A DNA stretch of 64,000 nt, from contig OY761556.1 in the NCBI GenBank assembly GCA_963664705.1, positions 2,208,001 through 2,272,000 of the forward strand, in the 5' to 3' direction. Both the position numbers and the translations under genes were made by a program. Under the pieces are notes generated by a model, which was given only the letters and a program-made list of their open reading frames with translations, had not been told where the DNA came from and did no database searches. Shown here in pieces: positions 14,353-43,261 of this stretch. Position 1 is the stretch's first letter. Each line of letters begins with the position of its first letter. The DNA comes from Acidobacteriota bacterium. Its GTDB lineage: Bacteria; Acidobacteriota; UBA6911.

Positions 14353-14403
14353 CCCCGGGCTCGCAAGCTCGCCCGGGGCTACTATCTATCGCGCCTCCGG
14401 CGC
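14353..14403. repeat. Single REP-like element (large hairpin, CTAC, small TCC-loop hairpin)
   Basis: CCCCGGGC...GCCCGGGG-CTAC-N8-GCGCCTCCGGCGC; same layout as 2179-2231. Confidence 0.6.
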
Positions 14404-14502
14404 TGGATCTTTGTTCCATCAGAGTGTCTCGCCGACAAGGAGCGTGGCCGCTTGCATGGCGCTGATGCCGCCGGGACGACGCCGGTCCCGGCGGAACCCC
14501 AA

Positions 14503-19374: not shown

Positions 19375-19449
<75 letters not shown>

Positions 19450-26310: not shown

Positions 26311-28059
26311 ATGAAACGAAACGGTGCGCTCATTGCTGCCATTCTCTCGATCACAGTCCTATCGATTGCGGTCCCCAGCCCCTCGCAACAAAGCCCAAAT
26401 ACCTTGATTACAGTCCTGAACCCGGCCGTGGCCAACCGACTCGCCGAAAGGCTTCCCCTGGCCCCGCGCCTGGGCACGCTGCAAAACAAAACCATCTATA
26501 TGGTCGATATCAACTGGGGAGGCCCCGAAGCCGCCCTGAGCATCTTTGAAGAAATGCAGGGATGGTTCGCCAGGAACATGCCCACGGTGAAGACGGTTAT
26601 CCGAATGAAACGGGGCGGATATGAAACCGACGATCCGGCCTTATGGAAGGAAATCAAGGAGAATGGAGGAAGCGCGGTCATTCTCGGCGTTTCCGGCTGA
26701 GATGGTTGTACGTCGGCCTTGAGTCGACATGCCCGAACCCTCGAACAGCAATTCAGGATCCCAACGGTCGGCATCGCGGGAAACAATATTGTCGGCTATG
26801 CCACCGGCTATGATTTTCTATATTCCAACGGATGCCCCATCCGCTACATCGCCCTCCCCTTCCCGGTCGCCGGCCAGCCCAAATCCGTGCACAGGCAATA
26901 TGTCGAAGGCAAGGATCTCGTTTCCGGCAAGCAGACCATGCAAGCGGTCGTGGATGCTTTAACTCTTCCGTTAACGGACAATGAAAAAATCAAAGGCATC
27001 CCGCCCGAAGCCAAGGCCGAGCCGAGATTCCTCCGCCCCGATACAGAGGAAAAACTCCAGCGCCTTTTCAAAGACCAGGGCTGGACAGACTACTATCCTG
27101 TTACCCTTCCCACCGAAAAAAGAGTCGCGCAAATGCTCCGGGCCAGCAGTCATAAGCCCGACGAAGTCGTGAAGGTGGTCACCTGGCCCGGCGGCGCCAG
27201 GCCGTTGACCGTCGAAAAGGCCGCGATCTGCGCCGTTATGGCCGGAGCCAGGCCGGAATATTTCCCAGTGATCCTGGCGCTTGCAACCACCGTGCCCTTT
27301 GGCAATTCCACTACGTCAATGGCAAACATGATTGTGGTTAATGGGCCCATCCGCAATAAAATCGGCATGAATTCCGGCGGCCATGCATTGGGACCCTACA
27401 ACGAAGCCAACTCCATCATCGGGCGCAGTCTTACTTTGATGTCCAAAACCGCCGGCGGCCTTCGCAACCGCATCACCACCTGGAGCTCACTGGGAAATAA
27501 TCTCCAATACAACAATCTCTGCTTTGCCGAAAACGAAGAGGAGCTCCCGGCCGGATGGGACCCTCTTCATGTGGGCATGGGATTCCGCCCGGAAGAGAGC
27601 GTGGTTACGGTGGGAGTCGGCTGGAGCTCCATATCGAGCGTGGGATCGGTTCAGCATCTATATCCCCCGCAAATGCTGATCCGGGATTATATGAAATCCC
27701 TTTCAGCCCAAGGCTCCTCGGCTACGATCCTCATGGATCCTACAGTCGCGGCGCTTCTCAAGAATGCTCACGGATTTCAATCCAAGCAAAGTTTATCTCA
27801 ATGGCTGTCCCAGAATGTGGAGAAGACTGCGGAATCATACTGGGGGAATGCGGTAGTCGCCAGCGTCAGCGCTTCCCTGGCCATGCAGGGCCTGGAACCC
27901 TATGCAACGTGGAAGAACCTTCCTGCGGCGGCGCTGATCAAGCCCTTTAACCAGCCGCAAGGAATACAGGTTGTGGTAGTCGGTGGGAAAACGCAAAGCA
28001 CCTGGTTCGCAACCGATTTCAGGCTCGGCCGCGGCGTTCTCGTCGATAGCTGGAGATAG
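26311..28059 (+). CDS. UGSC-family-like putative selenoprotein, 582 aa, Sec at codon 130 (TGA 26698-26700), with signal peptide
   Basis: ORFs 26311-26700 and 26719-28059 share a frame; readthrough gives VILGVSG-U-DGCTSAL (UxxC); GGAGG RBS only at 26311; C-terminal GWTD..P..LPT, TVEK.A..AVMAG and VNGPI motifs. Confidence 0.82.
26704..26739 (+). promoter_or_regulatory. Candidate bacterial SECIS hairpin
   Basis: GTCGGC-CTTGA-GTCGAC stem-loop (26712-26728) starts 11 nt after the TGA; extendable by GTA/TGC and GGTT/AACC. Confidence 0.55.
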
Positions 28060-32555: not shown

Positions 32556-34994
32556 CTAGGCTTTGCCGAGCGCCTTCAAAACAGAGTCCGGTGTGACCGG
32601 ATAGCTGTCGACCCAGACCCCCAGCGCATTATGGACGGCAGGCACGAGCAGTGCCGGAACCACGGTGGCAACATCTTCTGCAATTCCGATGATTCCGTAC
32701 GGGCCATATCCCATGCCGGTTTCAACGAGATCAGTGTTTACCGATCCGATGTCCTCGATTGTGGCGATTTTGTAATCCAGAAGGTTGCCGTTGAGCATGA
32801 CACCGGTGGCCGGATCGTGAATCACCTCTTCGCTGCGGCCGCGTCCTACGGCCATATAGGTTCCGCCGTACTGCTGCCCCTCGCAGCCCTCCCAGCTCAC
32901 GACTTTTCCCACGTCATTGACATTTACAACCTTGGTGACCTCAACCTCGCCTGTCTCCGGATCCACCTCGACTTCCATAAAGTGCGCCTGCCGGCACAGT
33001 CGCAGACGCTGGCTGGCATAGGCTCCCTGCTGCACTTGCCAACCGTAGGCAAAGAGCGGTTCCGTAAAGTTGCTCCGCTGGGCGCCCTTTCCCATTTCCG
33101 GCTGCGTGGTGATCGGCCCTTCGCCGCCGGCGGGCCCCACCAGTTCCGCGATCGTTTTTCGAATGGAGGGATCTTTCCTGACGAATATGATGCTGTCCTT
33201 GATGTCCAGGTCTTCCGGGGTCATTCCCGGAAAAACCGGAGGGAAGCTTCCCCGGATCGTCTGCCCCTGGGGTTTGGTGGCCAGCTCCAGAATTCTGCTG
33301 CGAAGAATTCTCGCGGCATTCCGGACGGCAAATCCGTTGACAGACATATTCGTGGAAGAGTCCGGGGTCATGGTAAAAAAGCCAGGATCCGTATGGGGAC
33401 GATAAAACACATCTTCCATTTTCAGCCCAAGCTCATCCGCGGCAATCTGGCAATAGGCTGTTTCAGCGTTTACACCGATATCGCATCGCATGCCCAGGAT
33501 GTTGGCGGTGCCGTCATTCCGCTCAATTCGTATCGCAATTTCACTCGATCCGGAAGAATCCTCCCACTCGTGAGTCCAGGCAAAAGCCATGCCGTGCATT
33601 TTTCCGTTCGGCAATCTTCTGGCGCCGGCGGCATGCCATTTGCCGTCCCAGTCGATTGCAGTCTTCCCTTTCTCCACACATTCCTGGAGACTGTCTCTGA
33701 CCTGGAATCCCATCGCGGCTTTCTGCTCATTCAGCCAATCTATGTCGTGCCCCTCGGCTCCGTCATTCTTGAGCGCAATCTCGACGGGATCCATCCCGAG
33801 AGCTTCCGCGACACGGTTGGTAATCAGCGTAAGCGTCAGGCAGTTTGAGTTCTGCTCACATCGAGTCGGAACATTGGGTCCTTTGTTCACCTGGATTGCT
33901 TCCAGCTTCGCGGCAATATTTTGAATTTTTGTATTTTCGCCAAGATGATGGAACGCGCCGAAAACGGGGAACCATTGATTGGCAACCATCGCTTTCCCCT
34001 CGACAGCGGTGATGGTTCCATCCTTTTGAAATCCCACTTTGATCCAATAGATTCCTTCGTCCATCTCGCCGCCGTAGAAATCTTCTCTGCGGTCGAACAC
34101 CCACTTCACCGGCCGGCCGGTGCGTTTGGCAATCATGGACGCACAGAAGTACGGTCCCATGTTCCACGAACAATGGCTCCAGCCGCCAAAGCTGGCTCCC
34201 TGATAAAGACAATGGACTTGGACTCGGTTCATAGGAACACCGGACCATTCCGAGATTGCCTTCTTGCTGATGAGCGGGTGCTGGTGTTTCAGCCAGAATT
34301 CAGGATATTCGCCGTTCCAGCGAACCACGCCACACGGCCGTTCCGGCCCCATCCAGGTATTGGCGGTGCGCGTCACTTTAAACTCGATCGTCTGATCCGC
34401 TTCGGAAAATCCGCGGACAACATCCCCGTGCTTTTCGACATCGAGGAATCCTTCGTTGTAATGATTCCCGTCCGGAGACATTTCGGGATTTGCCAATGGT
34501 GCGTCCCTCAGGGCTGCCTTCTCCGGATCAATCACAAAGGGCCTTTCGTCCCACTCAACCTCAATCAAGCTCAGCGCTTCATCCACAATTTGCTCGGTAT
34601 CCGCGGCAACCATGACCCCAACTTCCTCTCCCTGGAAGTAAGCGGTATCCGGCAGCACGGTAACCTGGTTCGGCACATGCCCACCCAGGTTGGCCAGTTT
34701 GGGAATCTCCGGATCATCGTAGCGCAGCACCGCGCGGACTCCTGGATAGGATTCGGCCTTACGGGTGTCCATGCTTCGAATCCTTGCACTCGGATAAGGA
34801 GAGGTGAGGAATTTGGCATGCAGCATTCCAGGGAGTTGCAGGTCAATTGTATACACGGCGCGTCCGCTTGCCTTTTCATAGCCATCCAGACGCCGGACTC
34901 CGCGTCGGCCTATGGCAGCGTAGTCCTGCAGCGGGAATTGGTCGGAATTCAGATTGTCCAGCGTTTCCGCGATCTTGCGCATTTCTTCGTTCAT
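32556..34994 (-). CDS. Xanthine dehydrogenase/aldehyde oxidase family molybdopterin-binding subunit
   Basis: RLDG.EKASG.A.Y..D..LPGML.A....SP, GASFGG, QIAADELG, EVEVDPETGEV, EGQ..GG, L.DYK; ATG 34994 after GGAG; no 2Fe-2S or FAD domain. Confidence 0.9.
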   Translation of the reverse strand: MNEEMRKIAETLDNLNSDQFPLQDYAAIGRRGVRRLDGYEKASGRAVYTIDLQLPGMLHAKFLTSPYPSARIRSMDTRKAESYPGVRAVLRYDDPEIPKLANLGGHVPNQVTVLPDTAYFQGEEVGVMVAADTEQIVDEALSLIEVEWDERPFVIDPEKAALRDAPLANPEMSPDGNHYNEGFLDVEKHGDVVRGFSEADQTIEFKVTRTANTWMGPERPCGVVRWNGEYPEFWLKHQHPLISKKAISEWSGVPMNRVQVHCLYQGASFGGWSHCSWNMGPYFCASMIAKRTGRPVKWVFDRREDFYGGEMDEGIYWIKVGFQKDGTITAVEGKAMVANQWFPVFGAFHHLGENTKIQNIAAKLEAIQVNKGPNVPTRCEQNSNCLTLTLITNRVAEALGMDPVEIALKNDGAEGHDIDWLNEQKAAMGFQVRDSLQECVEKGKTAIDWDGKWHAAGARRLPNGKMHGMAFAWTHEWEDSSGSSEIAIRIERNDGTANILGMRCDIGVNAETAYCQIAADELGLKMEDVFYRPHTDPGFFTMTPDSSTNMSVNGFAVRNAARILRSRILELATKPQGQTIRGSFPPVFPGMTPEDLDIKDSIIFVRKDPSIRKTIAELVGPAGGEGPITTQPEMGKGAQRSNFTEPLFAYGWQVQQGAYASQRLRLCRQAHFMEVEVDPETGEVEVTKVVNVNDVGKVVSWEGCEGQQYGGTYMAVGRGRSEEVIHDPATGVMLNGNLLDYKIATIEDIGSVNTDLVETGMGYGPYGIIGIAEDVATVVPALLVPAVHNALGVWVDSYPVTPDSVLKALGKA

Positions 34995-35181
34995 TGGCTG
35001 CTCCGGATTTGTTGCCACAATATGACAAATGCCTTCGCAAATTCCACTGTATTCGTTATCCGCTTGAAATGGGAAAAGTCCCTGAGGCGATCGGATCGTC
35101 AAGGCATAAATCGTGAAATGCCTTTGACTTGGACCGGCGTCCATTTTAGCATTAGGGCACAGGTATAGGGAGGACAGGTGA

Positions 35182-35583
35182 ATGCCGCATAATGATAAAG
35201 ACGATTCGAAACAGACGGTTTCCAAAACGATCTCGCGCCGAGACTTCGCAAAAGGCTCGATGGCCGTGGTGGGGGCCTACTCCTCTTTTGCCCAGGAACC
35301 GCCTCCGCCTCTGTCCGATGCGGCCAAAGAAATAAAGCTCGAACTATCCGACGATGTGCAAAAGGTTCTAGATGAAAGGCACATCACCGAGGAGGATATC
35401 AAGCGGGTGATTGAAAATGCCGAGAGTACCGGGCTGAAGCTCTACCTGCCGGGAACGCAGAACTTCCTGTCAAAGCTGCGGATATACCAGGCATTGTTCT
35501 ATGTGGAGTATACGCTGGTGGAGAAGAATCGCTTTAAGGTTCATACGGCATATCTGCACCGATTCAAACTGGGGGAGGAATGA
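35182..35583 (+). CDS. Small protein with a twin-arginine-like leader and a domain resembling the C-terminus of DVU_1558-type oxidoreductases
   Basis: SRRDFAKG leader; V...LDERHI.EEDI..VI..AE..G...YVEY......V.TAY.HR; GGGAGG RBS. Confidence 0.65.
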   Translation: MPHNDKDDSKQTVSKTISRRDFAKGSMAVVGAYSSFAQEPPPPLSDAAKEIKLELSDDVQKVLDERHITEEDIKRVIENAESTGLKLYLPGTQNFLSKLRIYQALFYVEYTLVEKNRFKVHTAYLHRFKLGEE

Positions 35584-35584
35584 C

Positions 35585-35770
35585 ATGGCCGACTGGTATT
35601 GCTTTCAGGATAAGGAGAAGATGGTCGAGGCCCAGGTAACCCTAAGCTATATGATGCTCTCGCAGAGAGTCCCTGGACTCAGATGCCCGGTTTGCGGCAC
35701 CGAGTATCTTACCGAAAAGACGGTCATGTCGATTGTGAAGGAAGCGGAAAACATACTCGAAGGAAAATAG
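35585..35770 (+). CDS. DVU_1557-like small redox/zinc-ribbon protein (61 aa)
   Basis: WYC....MVE..V.L.Y........RCPVCG..YL.E......EAE..LE.K; ATG after GGAGG, coupled by TGACATG. Confidence 0.75.
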   Translation: MADWYCFQDKEKMVEAQVTLSYMMLSQRVPGLRCPVCGTEYLTEKTVMSIVKEAENILEGK

Positions 35771-35779
35771 TCTCCACGC

Positions 35780-37093
35780 ATGGCCATTGCTCAAAACCAA
35801 ACCGAGAGCCTCTGTCCTTATTGCCTCCGGCAAATCGACGCGCGCAGAGTGCGCGACGAAGATTCCGTGTACCTGGAAAAATCGTGTCCCGAACACGGAG
35901 ACCTCGAAAGAGTTCTTGTCTGGAAAGATTCCCCCTGGCCTTATGAAGCATGGGACCGCGGAAGATCCAAACCGCACGCAACCGTCGCGCAATCTCAAAC
36001 GGATCCGTCCCAACTGCAGGGCTGCCCCCTCGATTGCGGAATCTGCAGCCGCCACGAACAAGCCACCTGCACGGCTATTATCGAAGTGACGCGGGAATGC
36101 AATCTGCAATGCCCGGTTTGCTTCGCCTCAGCGCCAACCGGAACCGGAGCAGGTCCGGATTTGTCCACAATCGAGGAAATGCTGATCACCGTGCGAACGA
36201 CGCGGGGAATTTGCCCTATTCAGCTCAGCGGGGGCGAACCGACGCTTCGGAATGATCTGCCTCAAATCGTGGAGCTTGCCCGAAAACTGGGATTCGATCA
36301 TATTCAAATCAACACCAACGGCATCCGCATTGCCCGGGATGAGTCATTCGCGCAATCACTCAAGGACGCAGGTGTCACCGATTTCTTTCTCCAGTTTGAC
36401 GGCCTGACCGACGATGTCTATGCACGGATTCGAGGCGCGCGACTTTTGACGGTCAAGCTTCAGGCTATCGAACGCTGCGCTCAACTAAAAGTGGGGGTCA
36501 TTCTCGTTCCAACCCTGGTCCGCGATGTCAATGACATGCAGATAGGACAAATCATCCAGTTTGCAAAAAAATGGATTCCCACGGTGAAGGGCGTCCACTT
36601 CCAGCCAATGACCTATTTGGGCCGGTACCCGGATTCACCCTGCAATAGCGAGCGTATCCTGATCCCGGAAATTCTGATAGCGATAGAGGAACAGACGGAG
36701 GGAGAGCTGCTCGCCGAAAATATGGTACCGCCTGGGTGAGAGGAGCCTCACTGCTCCTTTTCCGCCCTCTCCGTGCTGAGAGAAGATGGGATCCTGACGG
36801 CCACGACACGCTTTGACACTCCGGCGGGAGCAGTCTATTCCCACGAAAATGCTGCCGAGAAATCAAAGGACTATGTCCGCCGCCACTGGAGATATCACGA
36901 ACCCGCGCCCGACTCCCAAGACATCCTGGAAAGAGCCAAAAGTCACACTCTGTGCATTTCAGGCATGGCATTTCAGGATGCGTGGAATATTGACCTTGCG
37001 CGGCTCAGGCGCTGCTGTATTCACGTTGTTACGCCGCAAAAAAAAGTGATTCCCTTCTGCTCCTATTACCTAAATACCGGAGTCAGGCCCTGA
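35780..37093 (+). CDS. trsS: TrsS-like radical SAM selenoprotein, 437 aa, Sec at codon 320 (TGA 36737-36739)
   Basis: SLCPYC...CPEHG, GCPLDCGIC, CNLQCPVC, QLSGGEPT, HFQP; in-frame continuation PPG-U-EEPHCSF into ISGMAFQDAWNIDL.RL.RCC.H...IPFC. Confidence 0.85.
36740..36782 (+). promoter_or_regulatory. Candidate SECIS hairpin(s) after the TrsS TGA
   Basis: GAGGAGC-CTCACT-GCTCCTT (36740-36759) and CTCTC-CGTGCT-GAGAG (36767-36782). Confidence 0.5.
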
Positions 37094-37099
37094 AAAAAT

Positions 37100-38437
37100 A
37101 TGATTTATTTGGAGGGGTGGATCCGTCAGATTGTTGCACAGGTGTTGAACCGGACGGCTGTGGATCGTGCGGCCATCGATGCCTATCAATGTCTCCGGCT
37201 GCGCCAGACGCTGCGCTATGCCTATGAACGAAGCTCCTTTTACCGGCAGCATTTTAGCAGCGCCGGTGTCACTCCCGATGACATTCATGATATAAACGAT
37301 CTTTCCCGCCTGCCCTTTACGGAACCGGAGCATTTGGCCGCCTCGCCTTATCGGTTTCTTTGCATTTCCCAATCCGAAATTGCCCGCCCGCATGCTTTTG
37401 TTACCTCCGGTACAACGGGACCGCAAAAAAAAGTTTTCTGGAGCCAGCGCGATCTGGACCGGATTGTCGAGTTTATGGCTGCAGGCATTGCGACGGTTGC
37501 AGACGAAGAGGATGTTGTGCAGATCCTCCTTGCAGATGGACGCCCGTACAGCCAGGCGGATCTGCTGTACCGAGGCGTGCAAAGGCTTGGAGCCAACCCT
37601 GTGATCAGCGGTATGGATATTGGCTCGGATGAACAGCTGCGCATCCTCGAGGAGTCTCACGCGACGGTGCTCTTCGGATACACCCACCAGATCTTTCGCC
37701 TTTCAAAAGACCTTCAAAACAAAACGGACCTTGCCGCCAGGAAAGTAAAGGCGCTTTTCCTCGCCGGAGCTTACGTACCGCCATTGATGCGTCATGAACT
37801 GGAGCATATCTGGAATTGCCGGGTTCACACTCACTACGGATTGACCGAGATGGGATTGGGCGTAGCGGTCGAATGCGATGCGCATGCGGGGTATCACTTC
37901 AATGAAGCCGGCCTTCTTATCGAAGTTGTGAATCCGAAAACAGGGATTGCGGCAGCTCCCGGGGAAGAAGGAGAGCTTGTGTTTACAACGCTTGCCCGCG
38001 AAGCCATGCCGCTCATCCGCTACCGTACACGTGATCTGTCGCGAATACTCCCGGATCCGTGTCCGTGCGGCGCACACAGCCTGCAGCGAATCGACTATGT
38101 CCGCAAGCGGCTGGAATCCATGATTTCGCTTGGCGGGAAAGAAGAAATCTATCCAGCGCTGCTGGATGATGCGCTCTATGGGATTCCTGGCTTGGTGGAC
38201 TACCAGGCGGTGCTGATGCGGGGGGAGAGCCTGTCCCGGCTGAAAGTTACGGCGGATATGTTGTCGGAGAATGCCCATGCATCGGAACAGATCCGTATGC
38301 AGCTACAATCAATTCCGGCCATTGCCAGGAGCATGGCAGCCGGAAAACTGGCCCGTCCAGAGGTCTCTATTGCGGCTCCCGGCGCACTGAAATCAGCCGG
38401 TCGCGAGAAGAAGCTGATAATAGTCAACAGCCAATAG
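37100..38437 (+). CDS. Phenylacetate-CoA-ligase-like AMP-forming enzyme (DVU_1553-like)
   Basis: S.FYR, LPFT, TSGTTG..K, HYGLTEMG, GELVFTTL.REAMPLIRYRT.D, CPCG. Confidence 0.85.
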   Translation: MIYLEGWIRQIVAQVLNRTAVDRAAIDAYQCLRLRQTLRYAYERSSFYRQHFSSAGVTPDDIHDINDLSRLPFTEPEHLAASPYRFLCISQSEIARPHAFVTSGTTGPQKKVFWSQRDLDRIVEFMAAGIATVADEEDVVQILLADGRPYSQADLLYRGVQRLGANPVISGMDIGSDEQLRILEESHATVLFGYTHQIFRLSKDLQNKTDLAARKVKALFLAGAYVPPLMRHELEHIWNCRVHTHYGLTEMGLGVAVECDAHAGYHFNEAGLLIEVVNPKTGIAAAPGEEGELVFTTLAREAMPLIRYRTRDLSRILPDPCPCGAHSLQRIDYVRKRLESMISLGGKEEIYPALLDDALYGIPGLVDYQAVLMRGESLSRLKVTADMLSENAHASEQIRMQLQSIPAIARSMAAGKLARPEVSIAAPGALKSAGREKKLIIVNSQ

Positions 38438-40356: not shown

Positions 40357-41148
40357 ATGCCTGGAGGCAAAAAAGCTGAAAGCGAAGAAGTTGCTGCCAA
40401 GAAGACATTCTCGAGACGCGATTTTATTGTCACCGGTAGCACAATAGCAGCCGTTGACGCACTGATCGCAACAACTCCTGCAAAAGCCGCCATTCCCGCT
40501 GCCACGCCAGCCAAGGGGACCGCGCTTCCGGAATCCAAAGGTTATCTGATTTATGACAGCAAGAAGTGTGCGGGCTGCACCACCTGTATGCTTAGCTGCT
40601 CGCTGACACACTATGGAGTTCAGAGCTTATCGCTCTCGCGCATCCAGATCATTCAAGACTCCTTCGGCAAATTCCCCACCGATATCAAGATGGCCCCGTG
40701 CCGGCAGTGCAAAACGCCTCCCTGCGTCGAGAATTGCCCGGTCGGCGCTGCCTTTGTGGACACCAAAAACGGAAATATCCGGCGAATCGACAGCAAGAAA
40801 TGTATCGGCTGCCGAACCTGCCTGGCGATGTGTCCGCAACAGCCGCATCGGACCGTCTGGAACCATGTCGAAGGCAAGTCTTCCAAATGCGATCTTTGCC
40901 TGGATACTCCACACTGGAATGAAAAAGGCGGGCCAGGAGGAAAGCAGGCTTGCGTTGAATCCTGTCCGATGAAAGCCATCAAGTTTGTAGCCCAAATCCC
41001 GGATCAGACCGAGACCGATGGCTACGATGTCAATCTGCGAAATGATCACTGGCTGAATCTGGGCTTGGTCGAAAACAGCACGATTATTCCGCCGGCTATG
41101 GCGGCGCAGGCCAAAGCAAAGAAACCCGCACCGAAACCGAAGGAATAG
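40357..41148 (+). CDS. 4Fe-4S dicluster (DmsB-like) protein with Tat signal
   Basis: SRRDF leader; CAGCTTCMLSC, CRQC...PC...CP, CIGCRTCLAMCP, KCDLC...AC...CP. Confidence 0.9.
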   Translation: MPGGKKAESEEVAAKKTFSRRDFIVTGSTIAAVDALIATTPAKAAIPAATPAKGTALPESKGYLIYDSKKCAGCTTCMLSCSLTHYGVQSLSLSRIQIIQDSFGKFPTDIKMAPCRQCKTPPCVENCPVGAAFVDTKNGNIRRIDSKKCIGCRTCLAMCPQQPHRTVWNHVEGKSSKCDLCLDTPHWNEKGGPGGKQACVESCPMKAIKFVAQIPDQTETDGYDVNLRNDHWLNLGLVENSTIIPPAMAAQAKAKKPAPKPKE

Positions 41149-41161
41149 GGAGGAAGACATT

Positions 41162-43261
41162 ATGTCAGGCGGATATACCGGTAAAATTGCACGAGTCAAC
41201 CTTACCACGAAAACAATCAGTACGATCGAGACCGCGAAGTATGAGGAATTTGGCGGCGGGCATGGGATGGGTTCTGCCATCTTCTTCGACCTGGTCGGCG
41301 ACCAGCTCCCTTTTGAGGCCTTCGATCCCAGAAACCTGATCATCATGATGGCTTCCCCGTTCTCCGGCACATTCATGCCGGGCTCCGGCCGCTGCGAAGT
41401 GCAGGGGCTTGGACCGGGCCTCTATCCGGTTGAATGGTTTGGGCACAGCAACTTTGGCGGCAGATTCACCGCCCAGCTGAAGTTTGCCGGTTGGGATGGC
41501 ATCGTTGTTGAAGGTGCCTCCGACAAGCCAGTCTGGATCAATATCGCGGACGATAAAATCAAGATTGAAGATGCCAACGGGATCTGGGGCATGGACACCT
41601 ACGATGCGCAGCAGGAAATTTCGCGGCGCGTCATGCCCAACCTCAGATACGGCGAATGGGCAGAGCTTGCCAACAGCTGCTTCACCACGCAGATTCCTGC
41701 AGTTGTCACTTGCGGCCCGGCCGGAGAGAACCTGAGCCGAATCGCCGGTCTGCTGCACGGTCCCGGTTCGCAGGCTGCTCTTTGCGGATTCGGATCGGTG
41801 TTTGGATCCAAAAAGCTGAAAGCCATCAGCGCGATCGGAACCGGCGGGATACCCATTGCCGATCCGAAGGCGTTCATGGATGCCCGTCTGTGGTTCCGAC
41901 AGTTCCAGTGGGACGTCGACAACCCGCGCGAACCCGAGAAGTTTGCGGGCCGCGGCTACTCCCTGATCAACGGAGCTCCAAGCGGCGGCAACGTCAGCAA
42001 TGGCAGTCTTCCTCTTGTGCCCGCGCGCGCTGCCGCGTGCGCCTCTTGCCCAAGAGGTTGCCGTATGCGCCTGGCTTCGGCCGACAGCAATGAATCGGTT
42101 TGCGCAGGAAGCATGTTTGCGCGCATCGGCGGCGGCGGGTTTGGCATGGCTCCGGGTGGTGCCGGCGCCAATGCAATGCCTCAGGCACTCAGCGGAAAGC
42201 TGACCCGACAGGGCAACGATTTGATGCACCGCTATGGTCTGGGCCACTGGCAGTTGATGGCTACTCAAGGCTACATCCAGTTCCTGGAACGAGCGGGAGT
42301 CTTCGGGAAAGGAAAGGAAATCGATCCCGATCTGCCACCCGCCGGAACTTTCGCCTACTATGAAGCGCTCATGAGAAAGCTGTCGCTCCGTGAAGGCAAG
42401 TTCGGCCAACTGGCCGGCGAGGCCGCCGCGAGAATGGCGGAAAAGCTCGGTCGGTACAAAGAAGATGTGAACTCCGGCAACGTGAGATTGACCTACTGGG
42501 GAACGCAAGAACACTACTCCTCCCAGGTGGAAGTCGAATGGGGCTTCGGTTCGCTGCTCGGAGAACGCGACCTGATGCTGCACCAGATTGCCAACTATCC
42601 GCTTCACTGGATGGCGGCTTCCGGCGCACCATACCTGACTGCAGAAGAAGCTTCCAAGCTTTATGCGGAAGCCATGGTTCCATACAATGACGATCGGTAC
42701 CTCGTGGATTATGGCGAAGGCCCGACCGGAGTTTACTCCGATTCCAAGGTCAAGCAGGTTGCCTGGGTCAAGCACTACGAAAAATTCTGGGTTGGCGCCG
42801 GCGGCTTCTGCGGATGGAGATGGCCCCAGTGCATCACCAACAACACCGCCGACCGGAGAGGCGCCACGCCGCAGGCAGAACCCAGGTTCTGGAACGCGGT
42901 TACCGGCAAGAAAGGTACCTTCGGGGACTATATGGCACTCGGGCACAAGATCTACACTCTTGACCGCGCCATCTGGGTCCTGCAGGGACGGCATCGCAAT
43001 ATGGAAGTCTTCCCGGATTACGTTTATGACAAACCAGCCGGCGGCGGAAGCGAGCTGCCCATGGTCGTCGACGGTGTCTGGAAGTATGACGGCGGCCGCG
43101 GTCGGAAGCTGGATCGCGAAAAAGTCGAAGACTTCAAGACGCGGTTCTATAAATTCGAAGGATACAACTCCGAAAACGGGTATCCGACCAGAGCCACTCT
43201 CGAAAAGATGAATCTCAAGAAGGTGGCTGACCTGTTGCAAAGCAAAGGCAAACTCGGGTAA
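41162..43261 (+). CDS. Aldehyde:ferredoxin oxidoreductase (tungsten-pterin AOR/WOR family)
   Basis: GGYTGKIARVNL, SNFGG.F...LKFAGWDGIVVEG, GPAGEN, GSKKLKAI, CASCPRGC, G.PT..TL..L. Confidence 0.9.
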   Translation: MSGGYTGKIARVNLTTKTISTIETAKYEEFGGGHGMGSAIFFDLVGDQLPFEAFDPRNLIIMMASPFSGTFMPGSGRCEVQGLGPGLYPVEWFGHSNFGGRFTAQLKFAGWDGIVVEGASDKPVWINIADDKIKIEDANGIWGMDTYDAQQEISRRVMPNLRYGEWAELANSCFTTQIPAVVTCGPAGENLSRIAGLLHGPGSQAALCGFGSVFGSKKLKAISAIGTGGIPIADPKAFMDARLWFRQFQWDVDNPREPEKFAGRGYSLINGAPSGGNVSNGSLPLVPARAAACASCPRGCRMRLASADSNESVCAGSMFARIGGGGFGMAPGGAGANAMPQALSGKLTRQGNDLMHRYGLGHWQLMATQGYIQFLERAGVFGKGKEIDPDLPPAGTFAYYEALMRKLSLREGKFGQLAGEAAARMAEKLGRYKEDVNSGNVRLTYWGTQEHYSSQVEVEWGFGSLLGERDLMLHQIANYPLHWMAASGAPYLTAEEASKLYAEAMVPYNDDRYLVDYGEGPTGVYSDSKVKQVAWVKHYEKFWVGAGGFCGWRWPQCITNNTADRRGATPQAEPRFWNAVTGKKGTFGDYMALGHKIYTLDRAIWVLQGRHRNMEVFPDYVYDKPAGGGSELPMVVDGVWKYDGGRGRKLDREKVEDFKTRFYKFEGYNSENGYPTRATLEKMNLKKVADLLQSKGKLG

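What the first reader, a model, noticed from the sequence alone, without database searches (positions are those of the whole stretch)
35780..37093. Second recoded gene: radical SAM selenoenzyme (TrsS-like, tetraether-synthase-related fold)
Seen: TGA at 36737-36739 is in frame with the downstream ORF, giving PPG-U-EEPHCSF and restoring the C-terminal FQDAWN.DL.RL..CC.H...IPFC region; hairpins follow the TGA. The N-terminal CPxC...CPEHG and CPxDCGxC motifs are those of the Tes/MJ0619-like radical SAM group. From recall, TrsS homologues have Cys or Sec at this site and unknown chemistry. Selenocysteine in a radical SAM enzyme is rare.
Basis: partly seen in the sequence, partly recalled or inferred. 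Interest (0 to 1): 0.75.

Follow-up and report, generated by a model that had tools for sequence, protein, structure and literature searches.

The report
Known selenoprotein: radical SAM enzyme TrsS
The stop codon inside this gene very likely encodes selenocysteine, which makes it an intact member of TrsS, an already catalogued family of iron-sulfur enzymes of unknown reaction, so it is a correct call but not a new kind of protein.

Summary
Confirmed. TGA 36737-36739 is in frame (U320). The read-through product passes the NCBIfam TrsS cut-off (557.6 vs 490); the truncated one fails (428.5). The genome has two selA, selB, selD and tRNA-Sec genes, plus a Cys paralogue. TGA sits at this site in 18 of 25 genomes of the genus (inferred Acidobacteriota).

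The likely SECIS is the second hairpin (36767-36782). It is intact in 19 of 19 TGA genes and broken in 7 of 7 Cys sister genes. The first hairpin is not Sec-specific.

The fold is Tes-like (7TOM, Z 42.6). All four metal sites are kept without U320, including the labile Met. U320 lies five residues before a cluster cysteine, and 34 of 148 homologues have neither Cys nor Sec there. So it is likely a catalytic or exchangeable residue, not a structural ligand.

Here TrsS sits in a compact four-gene cassette with a twin-arginine small protein, a DVU_1557-like protein and an AMP-forming ligase.

TrsS is a listed selenoprotein family, and this scan reported a Sec-TrsS before in another genome (e1-1086135). 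New member of a known kind; the substrate is unknown.

The parts
35780..37093 (+). trsS gene, 437 aa when the internal TGA is read as Sec; Tes-fold radical SAM protein
   Evidence: NF045646 557.6 bits over the 490 cut-off; model pLDDT 88.3; 7TOM Z 42.6, rmsd 2.9, 393 aligned
36737..36739 (+). In-frame TGA, inferred Sec320
   Evidence: TGA in 19 and Cys codons in 62 of 92 distinct homologues; Cys in the genome's own paralogue
36767..36782 (+). Likely SECIS core: 5-bp stem, 6-nt loop with G at position 2, 32 nt after the UGA; a weaker lower stem reaches about 36760-36791
   Evidence: 5 of 5 pairs in 19 of 19 TGA genes, 1-4 of 5 in 7 of 7 Cys sister genes; holds the only 4 fully frozen codons among 86 invariant 4- or 6-fold codons; -8.6 kcal/mol with the lower stem
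36740..36759 (+). First hairpin after the TGA; not Sec-specific
   Evidence: 81% of cells paired in 18 TGA genes, 91% in 5 Cys sister genes
35813..35896 (+). Rubredoxin-like metal site C12, C15, C36, H39
   Evidence: Aligns with Tes C9, C12, C33, H36; the three Cys in 148 of 148, His in 145
36023..36055 (+). Predicted N-terminal auxiliary 4Fe-4S site C82, C86, C89, H92
   Evidence: Aligns with Tes C73, C77, C80 and His; conserved in 146-148 of 148
36098..36121 (+). Radical SAM CxxxCxxC motif C107, C111, C114
   Evidence: PF04055; 148 of 148
36752..37060 (+). Predicted C-terminal auxiliary 4Fe-4S ligands C325 (36752), M396 (36965), C412 (37013), C427 (37058), all downstream of the TGA
   Evidence: M396 aligns with the labile Tes Met439; C325, M396, C412 in 148 of 148, C427 in 147. 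Which three Cys bind the cluster is inferred from conservation; the papers read say only 3 Cys + 1 Met
35182..35583 (+). 133-aa protein: twin-arginine-like leader plus the C-terminal domain of the NF045663 dicluster oxidoreductase, standing alone
   Evidence: NF045663 model positions 673-757, E 3e-18; leader motif seen in relatives; next to trsS in all 22 Acidobacteriota loci
35585..35770 (+). 61-aa DVU_1557-like small protein (CxxD...CxxC)
   Evidence: PF24292 50.5 bits over the 27 cut-off; NF045645 38.8, under its 60 cut-off
37100..38437 (+). DVU_1553-family AMP-dependent CoA ligase, starting 6 nt after the true trsS stop
   Evidence: NF045666 358 bits over the 300 cut-off
32556..35225 (-). 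Divergent xanthine-dehydrogenase-type molybdopterin subunit (variable neighbour)
   Evidence: PF01315, PF02738, PF20256; beside the cassette in some relatives only
40357..43261 (+). Twin-arginine ferredoxin and tungsten-type aldehyde:ferredoxin oxidoreductase (variable neighbours)
   Evidence: PF13247, PF02730, PF01314; near the cassette in some relatives

Best explanation
This is an intact trsS gene whose internal UGA is very likely read as selenocysteine through a hairpin 32 nt downstream, giving a radical SAM enzyme predicted to carry four metal sites like the tetraether synthase Tes, with the selenocysteine likely acting beside the C-terminal iron-sulfur cluster and not as one of its fixed ligands. 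Shown here: the frame, family membership, the conserved codon, the hairpin that comes and goes with the TGA, and the Sec machinery. Inferred from Tes: SAM cleavage gives a 5'-deoxyadenosyl radical, it takes a hydrogen from a substrate, and the substrate radical is held at the C-terminal cluster, which has a labile Met ligand. Inferred more weakly: Sec320 is an exchangeable fourth ligand or a radical or sulfur/selenium relay at that cluster, an optional improvement over Cys. The substrate is most likely a small acid activated by the neighbouring AMP-forming ligase and fed by Mo/W aldehyde oxidoreductases, with the 61-aa protein as electron carrier. Odds by step: Sec recoding about 0.97, Tes-type four-site architecture about 0.9, Sec near but not structural to the cluster about 0.6, ligase-activated small substrate about 0.35.
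For: Read-through passes NF045646 and the truncation does not. Two selA, two selB, two selD over cut-off and two Rfam tRNA-Sec. TGA form in 18 of 25 genus genomes including this one; all 17 relatives with it have selA and selB. The frame after the TGA is as conserved as before it (61% vs 61% identity) and open for 117-153 codons in 18 of 18 genes. [quoted passage not shown] It is intact in 19 of 19 TGA genes and broken in 7 of 7 Cys sisters, which form two separate lineages (2 changes in all 200 bootstrap trees; a single Cys clade rejected, p-AU 0.006, with the site masked). The best structural match is Tes, and all four sets of ligands align, including Met439 to M396. The ligase follows trsS in 21 of 22 Acidobacteriota loci (the other contig ends there). 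A Mo/W oxidoreductase lies within the fetched flanks in 10 of 19 TGA loci, against 7% of random 13-kb stretches of this genome (kin are not independent).
Against: No protein or RNA evidence of Sec insertion was obtained. The five stem pairs never vary, so there is no covariation support, and the hairpins do not beat shuffles energetically. No coordinates were available, so the distance from residue 320 to the cluster was not measured. Position 320 is not Cys or Sec in 34 of 148 homologues, so it may be peripheral. In 9 of 19 TGA loci no Mo/W oxidoreductase lies in the fetched flanks (four of these contigs are under 9 kb), and one Cys locus lacks the ligase nearby (L121), as does the TGA locus L039. 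No TrsS reaction was found in the papers searched.
Confidence: 0.85

Rival explanations
1. Sec320 is a permanent ligand of an auxiliary iron-sulfur cluster or of a further metal site formed with TrsS-specific cysteines such as C97, C233 or C413.
For: It lies five residues before the invariant C325 in a confidently modelled loop (pLDDT 90-94). C97 is in 147 of 148 homologues and has no Cys counterpart in Tes. The residue next to M396 changes with the site (A397 in 110 of 114 Cys/Sec forms, Pro in 25 of 34 others), though this is confounded by descent.
Against: All four Tes ligand sets are complete without it, and 34 of 148 homologues carry R, V, A, S, P or G there while keeping every other ligand.
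Confidence: 0.2
2. The enzyme is a bacterial membrane-spanning lipid synthase that does Tes chemistry on lipid tails.
For: Tes fold and cofactors; bacterial Tes homologues in Acidobacteria were proposed as brGDGT enzymes (PMC8941075 passages); an acyl-CoA-ligase-like gene is adjacent.
Against: It fails the Tes cut-off (364 vs 450), while another gene of this genome passes it (L011, 552). It lacks a 20-residue Tes insert before C325 and has 71 residues between C325 and M396 against 101 in Tes; that these segments form the lipid pocket is my inference. Tes Tyr459 aligns with Val. The neighbours found are redox and molybdoenzyme genes.
Confidence: 0.1
3. The TGA is a real stop: a pseudogene, or a gene split in two with re-initiation at the GTG at 36773.
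For: A 106-aa ORF starts at GTG 36773, and that GTG is kept in 18 of 18 TGA genes. The genome has an intact Cys paralogue.
Against: The same stop type at the same codon in 19 diverged genes with no other stop. Codons between the TGA and the GTG keep their amino acids with synonymous changes, including the cluster ligand C325, which a split product would lose. The GTG lies in the hairpin loop and the codons on both sides are frozen as well.
Confidence: 0.02
4. UGA is read as another amino acid (Trp, Gly or Cys) through a changed code or the 72-nt tRNA-like gene with a UCA anticodon.
For: ARAGORN lists a third, short tRNA with anticodon TCA.
Against: TGA ends 608 of 1964 ORFs over 400 aa in the genome and ends trsS itself. 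The short element has a mismatched acceptor stem, matches only generic tRNA in Rfam and lies between rtcA and rtcR. No homologue has Trp at the site.
Confidence: 0.01

Closest known systems
TrsS, radical SAM (seleno)protein, NCBIfam NF045646 (Haft and Tolstoy 2025, as listed in PMC13188914)
   Same: Passes the curated cut-off only when read through; one Sec; flanked by DVU_1557-like and DVU_1553-family genes; often near Mo/W aldehyde oxidoreductases.
   Different: Compact four-gene cassette. The dicluster FAD protein is cut down to a stand-alone C-terminal domain with a twin-arginine-like leader, and the C-GCAxxG-C-C and XdhC genes and Mop-type enzyme of the full cluster are not beside it. Whether the published Sec site is this same column could not be checked, because the paper was not held.
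Tes / GDGT-MAS, tetraether lipid synthase of Methanocaldococcus jannaschii (MJ0619; PDB 7TOL, 7TOM; NF045702)
   Same: Fold (Z 42.6, rmsd 2.9, 393 aligned, 37% identity), rubredoxin site, N-terminal cluster, radical SAM cluster, and the C-terminal cluster with its labile Met.
   Different: Below the Tes cut-off; two inserts in the C-terminal domain are missing or shorter; Tyr459 is not kept; has Cys/Sec at 320 and an extra C97; different gene context.
Other radical SAM selenoproteins (TIGR04167 family, GxxU motif; listed in PMC13188914)
   Same: Radical SAM fold with one predicted Sec.
   Different: Different family; it was not among the 25 best NCBIfam matches shown for this protein.

Membership tests
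TrsS (NF045646) | Score above the curated cut-off of 490 bits | tested here: met
   557.6 for the read-through product, 428.5 for the truncation
TrsS (NF045646) | Sec aligned with Cys of non-selenoprotein members | tested here: met
   19 TGA and 62 Cys codons in 92 distinct genes; own paralogue has Cys
TrsS (NF045646) | Same Sec position as the published selenoprotein example WP_327020591.1 | not testable with these tools
   Paper not held, supplements of the review not held; an unrelated-phylum gene (L039) has TGA at the same column
TrsS (NF045646) | Neighbourhood of DVU_1553-DVU_1558-type genes | tested here: met
   NF045666 over cut-off; PF24292 over cut-off; partial NF045663
TrsS (NF045646) | Context of a molybdopterin aldehyde oxidoreductase (recalled from the abstract, not seen in any call) | tested here: inconclusive
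   An Xdh-type Mo subunit and a W-type AOR flank the cassette here, but neither passes the Mop model NF045668; such a neighbour is seen in 10 of 19 TGA loci
Bacterial selenoprotein | selA, selB, selD and tRNA-Sec in the genome | tested here: met
   Two of each
Bacterial selenoprotein | SECIS-type hairpin 16-37 nt after the UGA with G at loop position 1-2 | tested here: met
   Spacing 32 nt, loop G at position 2, -8.6 kcal/mol, specific to TGA genes
Bacterial selenoprotein | Selenium detected in the protein | not testable with these tools
   Needs 75Se labelling or mass spectrometry
Tes (NF045702) | Score above the curated cut-off of 450 bits | tested here: not met
   364.3; another gene of the genome scores 552.1
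Tes (NF045702) | Four metal-binding motifs including 3Cys+Met C-terminal cluster | tested here: met
   All align and are conserved
Tes (NF045702) | C-C coupling of lipid tails | not testable with these tools
   Needs an assay

The most novel reading that the evidence does not exclude
In this Acidobacteriota genus a pared-down, export-linked TrsS cassette uses selenocysteine as a swappable fourth ligand or radical trap at the Tes-type C-terminal cluster, replacing the labile Met during turnover. That would be a radical SAM enzyme whose own selenium takes part in catalysis, and the natural Sec and Cys versions within one genus, and within one genome, would allow a direct test.
Probability: 0.2. 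Interest if true: 0.65.

Novelty: new member of a known kind. Interest (0 to 1): 0.25.

Why it matters
Gene callers cut this gene at the UGA: 45 of the 120 best database hits are such truncations, including this one, and they lose all four predicted C-terminal cluster ligands. Correct reading shows that the Sec form is the majority in this genus (18 of 25 genomes), whereas only 1 of 20 TrsS genes in a 251-genome sample of another phylum had it. The work pins down a SECIS element by its loss in two independent Cys lineages and narrows what the Sec can be doing. It also warns that not every acidobacterial Tes homologue is a lipid synthase. The family itself and its selenoprotein status are already catalogued, and its reaction stays unknown.

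Tried and rejected
Folding energy alone gave no support for either hairpin (z from -0.6 to 0.7). Rfam has no match over the gene. The first hairpin was rejected as the SECIS because Cys genes keep it. A sigma-70-like site upstream of the cassette is at chance level (2 found, 2.7 expected). No RNA holder was listed for the region, which says nothing on expression; the raw-read run X6 laid no reads and X5 did not cover the TGA. The ESM Atlas gave only unnamed clusters for the 133-aa protein. The primary TrsS paper could not be read, and searches for DVU locus tags found only two passing mentions of DVU1559 in the listing. The 88-row tree is a quick search with long-branch warnings and was used only to define the clade; four short proteins were dropped before it, and three Tes-like rows before the conservation counts. 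Covariation of other positions with residue 320 is confounded by descent and is not used as support.

Full report
Observation. The interval 35780-37093 is one frame of 437 codons with a single internal TGA at 36737-36739. Under the standard code it splits into a 319-aa ORF and a 106-aa ORF. The read-through product scores 557.6 bits on NCBIfam NF045646, 'radical SAM (seleno)protein TrsS' (cut-off 490); the 319-aa piece scores 428.5 and fails; the Tes model gives 364.3 against a cut-off of 450. The host is inferred to be an Acidobacteriota member from the titles of the closest homologues and an Acido-Lenti-1 RNA in the window.

Sec machinery. The genome holds two selA, two selB and two selD genes over their cut-offs (one selD has its own TGA) and two tRNAs that Rfam calls tRNA-Sec. 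It uses the system heavily: 22 of 24 tblastn hits to a UGSC-type domain carry TGA at the same Cys column. TGA is still a normal stop, ending 608 of 1964 ORFs over 400 aa. A second TrsS with Cys at the site lies in a full canonical cluster at G000:198070-207597.

The site in homologues. Of 41 genomes searched, 24 have a TrsS over cut-off, all within the genus; 18 of the 25 genus genomes, this one included, have the TGA form. All 17 relatives with it have selA and selB. Across 103 loci, 92 distinct after removing duplicates, the column holds TGA in 19, Cys codons in 62 and other residues or a gap in 11 (two or three of these are Tes-like genes); the 19 TGAs are the only stops in any aligned region. 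One TGA gene comes from another phylum (L039, Thermodesulfobacteriota, with selA). In a sample of 251 genomes of that phylum it was the only TGA among 20 TrsS genes. In the protein database all 45 short hits among the best 120 end exactly at the site. Identity to the window protein is 61% both before and after the TGA. In a wider set of 148 de-replicated proteins, 114 have Cys or Sec and 34 have R, V, A, S, P or G.

SECIS. Two hairpins follow the TGA, neither unusual in energy. Comparison separates them. The first (36740-36759) is paired in 81% of cells in 18 TGA genes and 91% in 5 Cys sister genes. The second (36767-36782) is 100% paired in TGA genes and 48% in Cys genes; with three more loci it is intact in 19 of 19 TGA genes and broken in 7 of 7 Cys sisters. 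Of 86 invariant four- or six-fold codons in the gene, only four show no synonymous change in 18 genes, and all four are in this hairpin (L330, S331, V332, R334); the median top-codon share is 0.53. One is AGA, the rarest Arg codon in the genome's long ORFs. Loop size, loop G, 32-nt spacing and energy (-8.6 kcal/mol with the lower stem) fit the consensus described in PMC13188914 (passages), and GU-containing loops occur after the UGSC TGAs. The stem never varies, so there is no compensatory change. The Cys sisters form two lineages: two changes in all 200 bootstrap trees, and with the site and hairpin masked a single TGA clade (p-AU 0.022) and a single Cys clade (p-AU 0.006) are both rejected. 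The simplest reading is ancestral Sec with two reversions, each followed by loss of the hairpin; the base of the clade is unresolved, so the direction is inferred. Four Cys-form genomes keep selA and selB, so reversion was not forced by loss of machinery.

Structure and the role of Sec. The AlphaFold model (pLDDT 88.3, pTM 0.91) matches Tes/GDGT-MAS far above anything else (7TOM Z 42.6, rmsd 2.9, 393 aligned; next Z 21.6). Tes has a rubredoxin iron, an N-terminal 3Cys+His cluster, the radical SAM cluster and a C-terminal 3Cys+Met cluster whose sulfur captures the substrate radical (PMC9433317 passages; PMC13459092 section 2.1). The profile alignment maps these to C12/C15/C36/H39, C82/C86/C89/H92, C107/C111/C114, and M396 for Met439. 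C325, C412 and C427 are the inferred cluster cysteines (148, 148 and 147 of 148). U320 is none of these. It sits in a short loop where Tes has a 20-residue insert, five residues before C325. Because nearly a quarter of homologues do without a thiol there, I read it as an accessory catalytic or exchangeable residue near the cluster.

Context. The gene lies in a tight run: a 133-aa protein, a 61-aa DVU_1557-like protein, trsS and a DVU_1553-family AMP-dependent ligase that starts 6 nt after the true stop. The two small genes precede trsS in all 22 Acidobacteriota loci, and the ligase follows in 21. The 133-aa protein is the C-terminal domain of the NF045663 oxidoreductase on its own, with a twin-arginine-like leader (motif recalled). 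Most loci from other phyla show the longer cluster with Mop-type oxidoreductase, dicluster protein, C-GCAxxG-C-C protein and XdhC. An Xdh-type or AOR-type enzyme lies near 10 of 19 TGA loci, against a 7% chance rate in this genome, which has about 19 and 17 such genes. A lipid-synthase role is less likely, since a separate gene passes the Tes cut-off, although bacterial Tes homologues have been proposed for that job (PMC8941075 passages).

What is known. TrsS is listed as a one-Sec selenoprotein family credited to Haft and Tolstoy 2025 (PMC13188914 table passage). That paper was not held; its gloss 'third radical SAM selenoprotein' and the link to aldehyde oxidoreductase are recalled, not seen. 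It or its supplements may already cover acidobacterial members and the Sec position. 'TrsS' with 'radical SAM' and 'selenoprotein' occurs in one held paper; other searches (listings only) showed no functional study. PMC13326102 has no mention of TrsS (find); PMC11186832 passages added nothing used here. Earlier notes of this scan report a Sec-TrsS in another genome and several TrsS clusters.

Verdict. The observation and the Sec reading are right. It is a new member of a known family. What this work adds is modest: the Sec form dominates one genus, the SECIS is located, the Sec is placed outside the canonical ligand set, and the cassette is a compact variant. Interest 0.25.

Noticed in passing
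window 26311-28059 (+): Two ORFs join through an in-frame TGA (VSG-U-DGC) into one 582-aa gene with a weak UGSC-family match (22.1 bits, far under the 125 cut-off); 22 of 24 related hits in the genome have TGA at the same column.
   Followed up: partly
G000:C1:3072596-3078309, and 3461774, 3657373, 2046792, 6559014: Two complete Sec systems. One set (selB, selA, selD, tRNA-Sec) is clustered; the other is scattered. Whether the two SelB proteins read different hairpins is untested; completeness 98%, contamination 6%.
   Followed up: partly
G000:C1:1625651-1625722 (-), L148/L149: A 72-nt tRNA-like element with anticodon TCA and a mismatched acceptor stem lies between rtcA and rtcR; likely the tRNA-like RNA of an RNA-repair operon (recalled), not a Sec tRNA.
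   Followed up: partly
window 35182-35583 (+): Stand-alone C-terminal domain of the NF045663 protein with a twin-arginine-like leader, conserved in the genus; an apparently exported protein co-located with a cytoplasmic-type radical SAM enzyme is unexplained.
   Followed up: partly
window 35585-35770 (+): The first CxxC of the DVU_1557-like protein is CxxD in the compact cassettes, while most other lineages have CxxC.
   Followed up: partly
L011 (G000:C1:2012421-2013860) and L012 (G000:C1:773503-774909): Two more Tes-like genes; L011 passes the Tes cut-off (552 vs 450) and is a better candidate for membrane-spanning lipid synthesis.
   Followed up: partly
whole genome G000: About 19 Xdh-type and 17 AOR-type Mo/W enzyme genes.
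   Followed up: no
window 14353-14404 and 19375-19449: Acido-Lenti-1 RNA and tRNA-Asn.
   Followed up: no
L039:5989-7368: A Thermodesulfobacteriota TrsS with TGA at the same column but a different downstream hairpin, next to NADH-dehydrogenase-like and Etf-like genes (read from the sequences) and a probable methyltransferase.
   Followed up: partly
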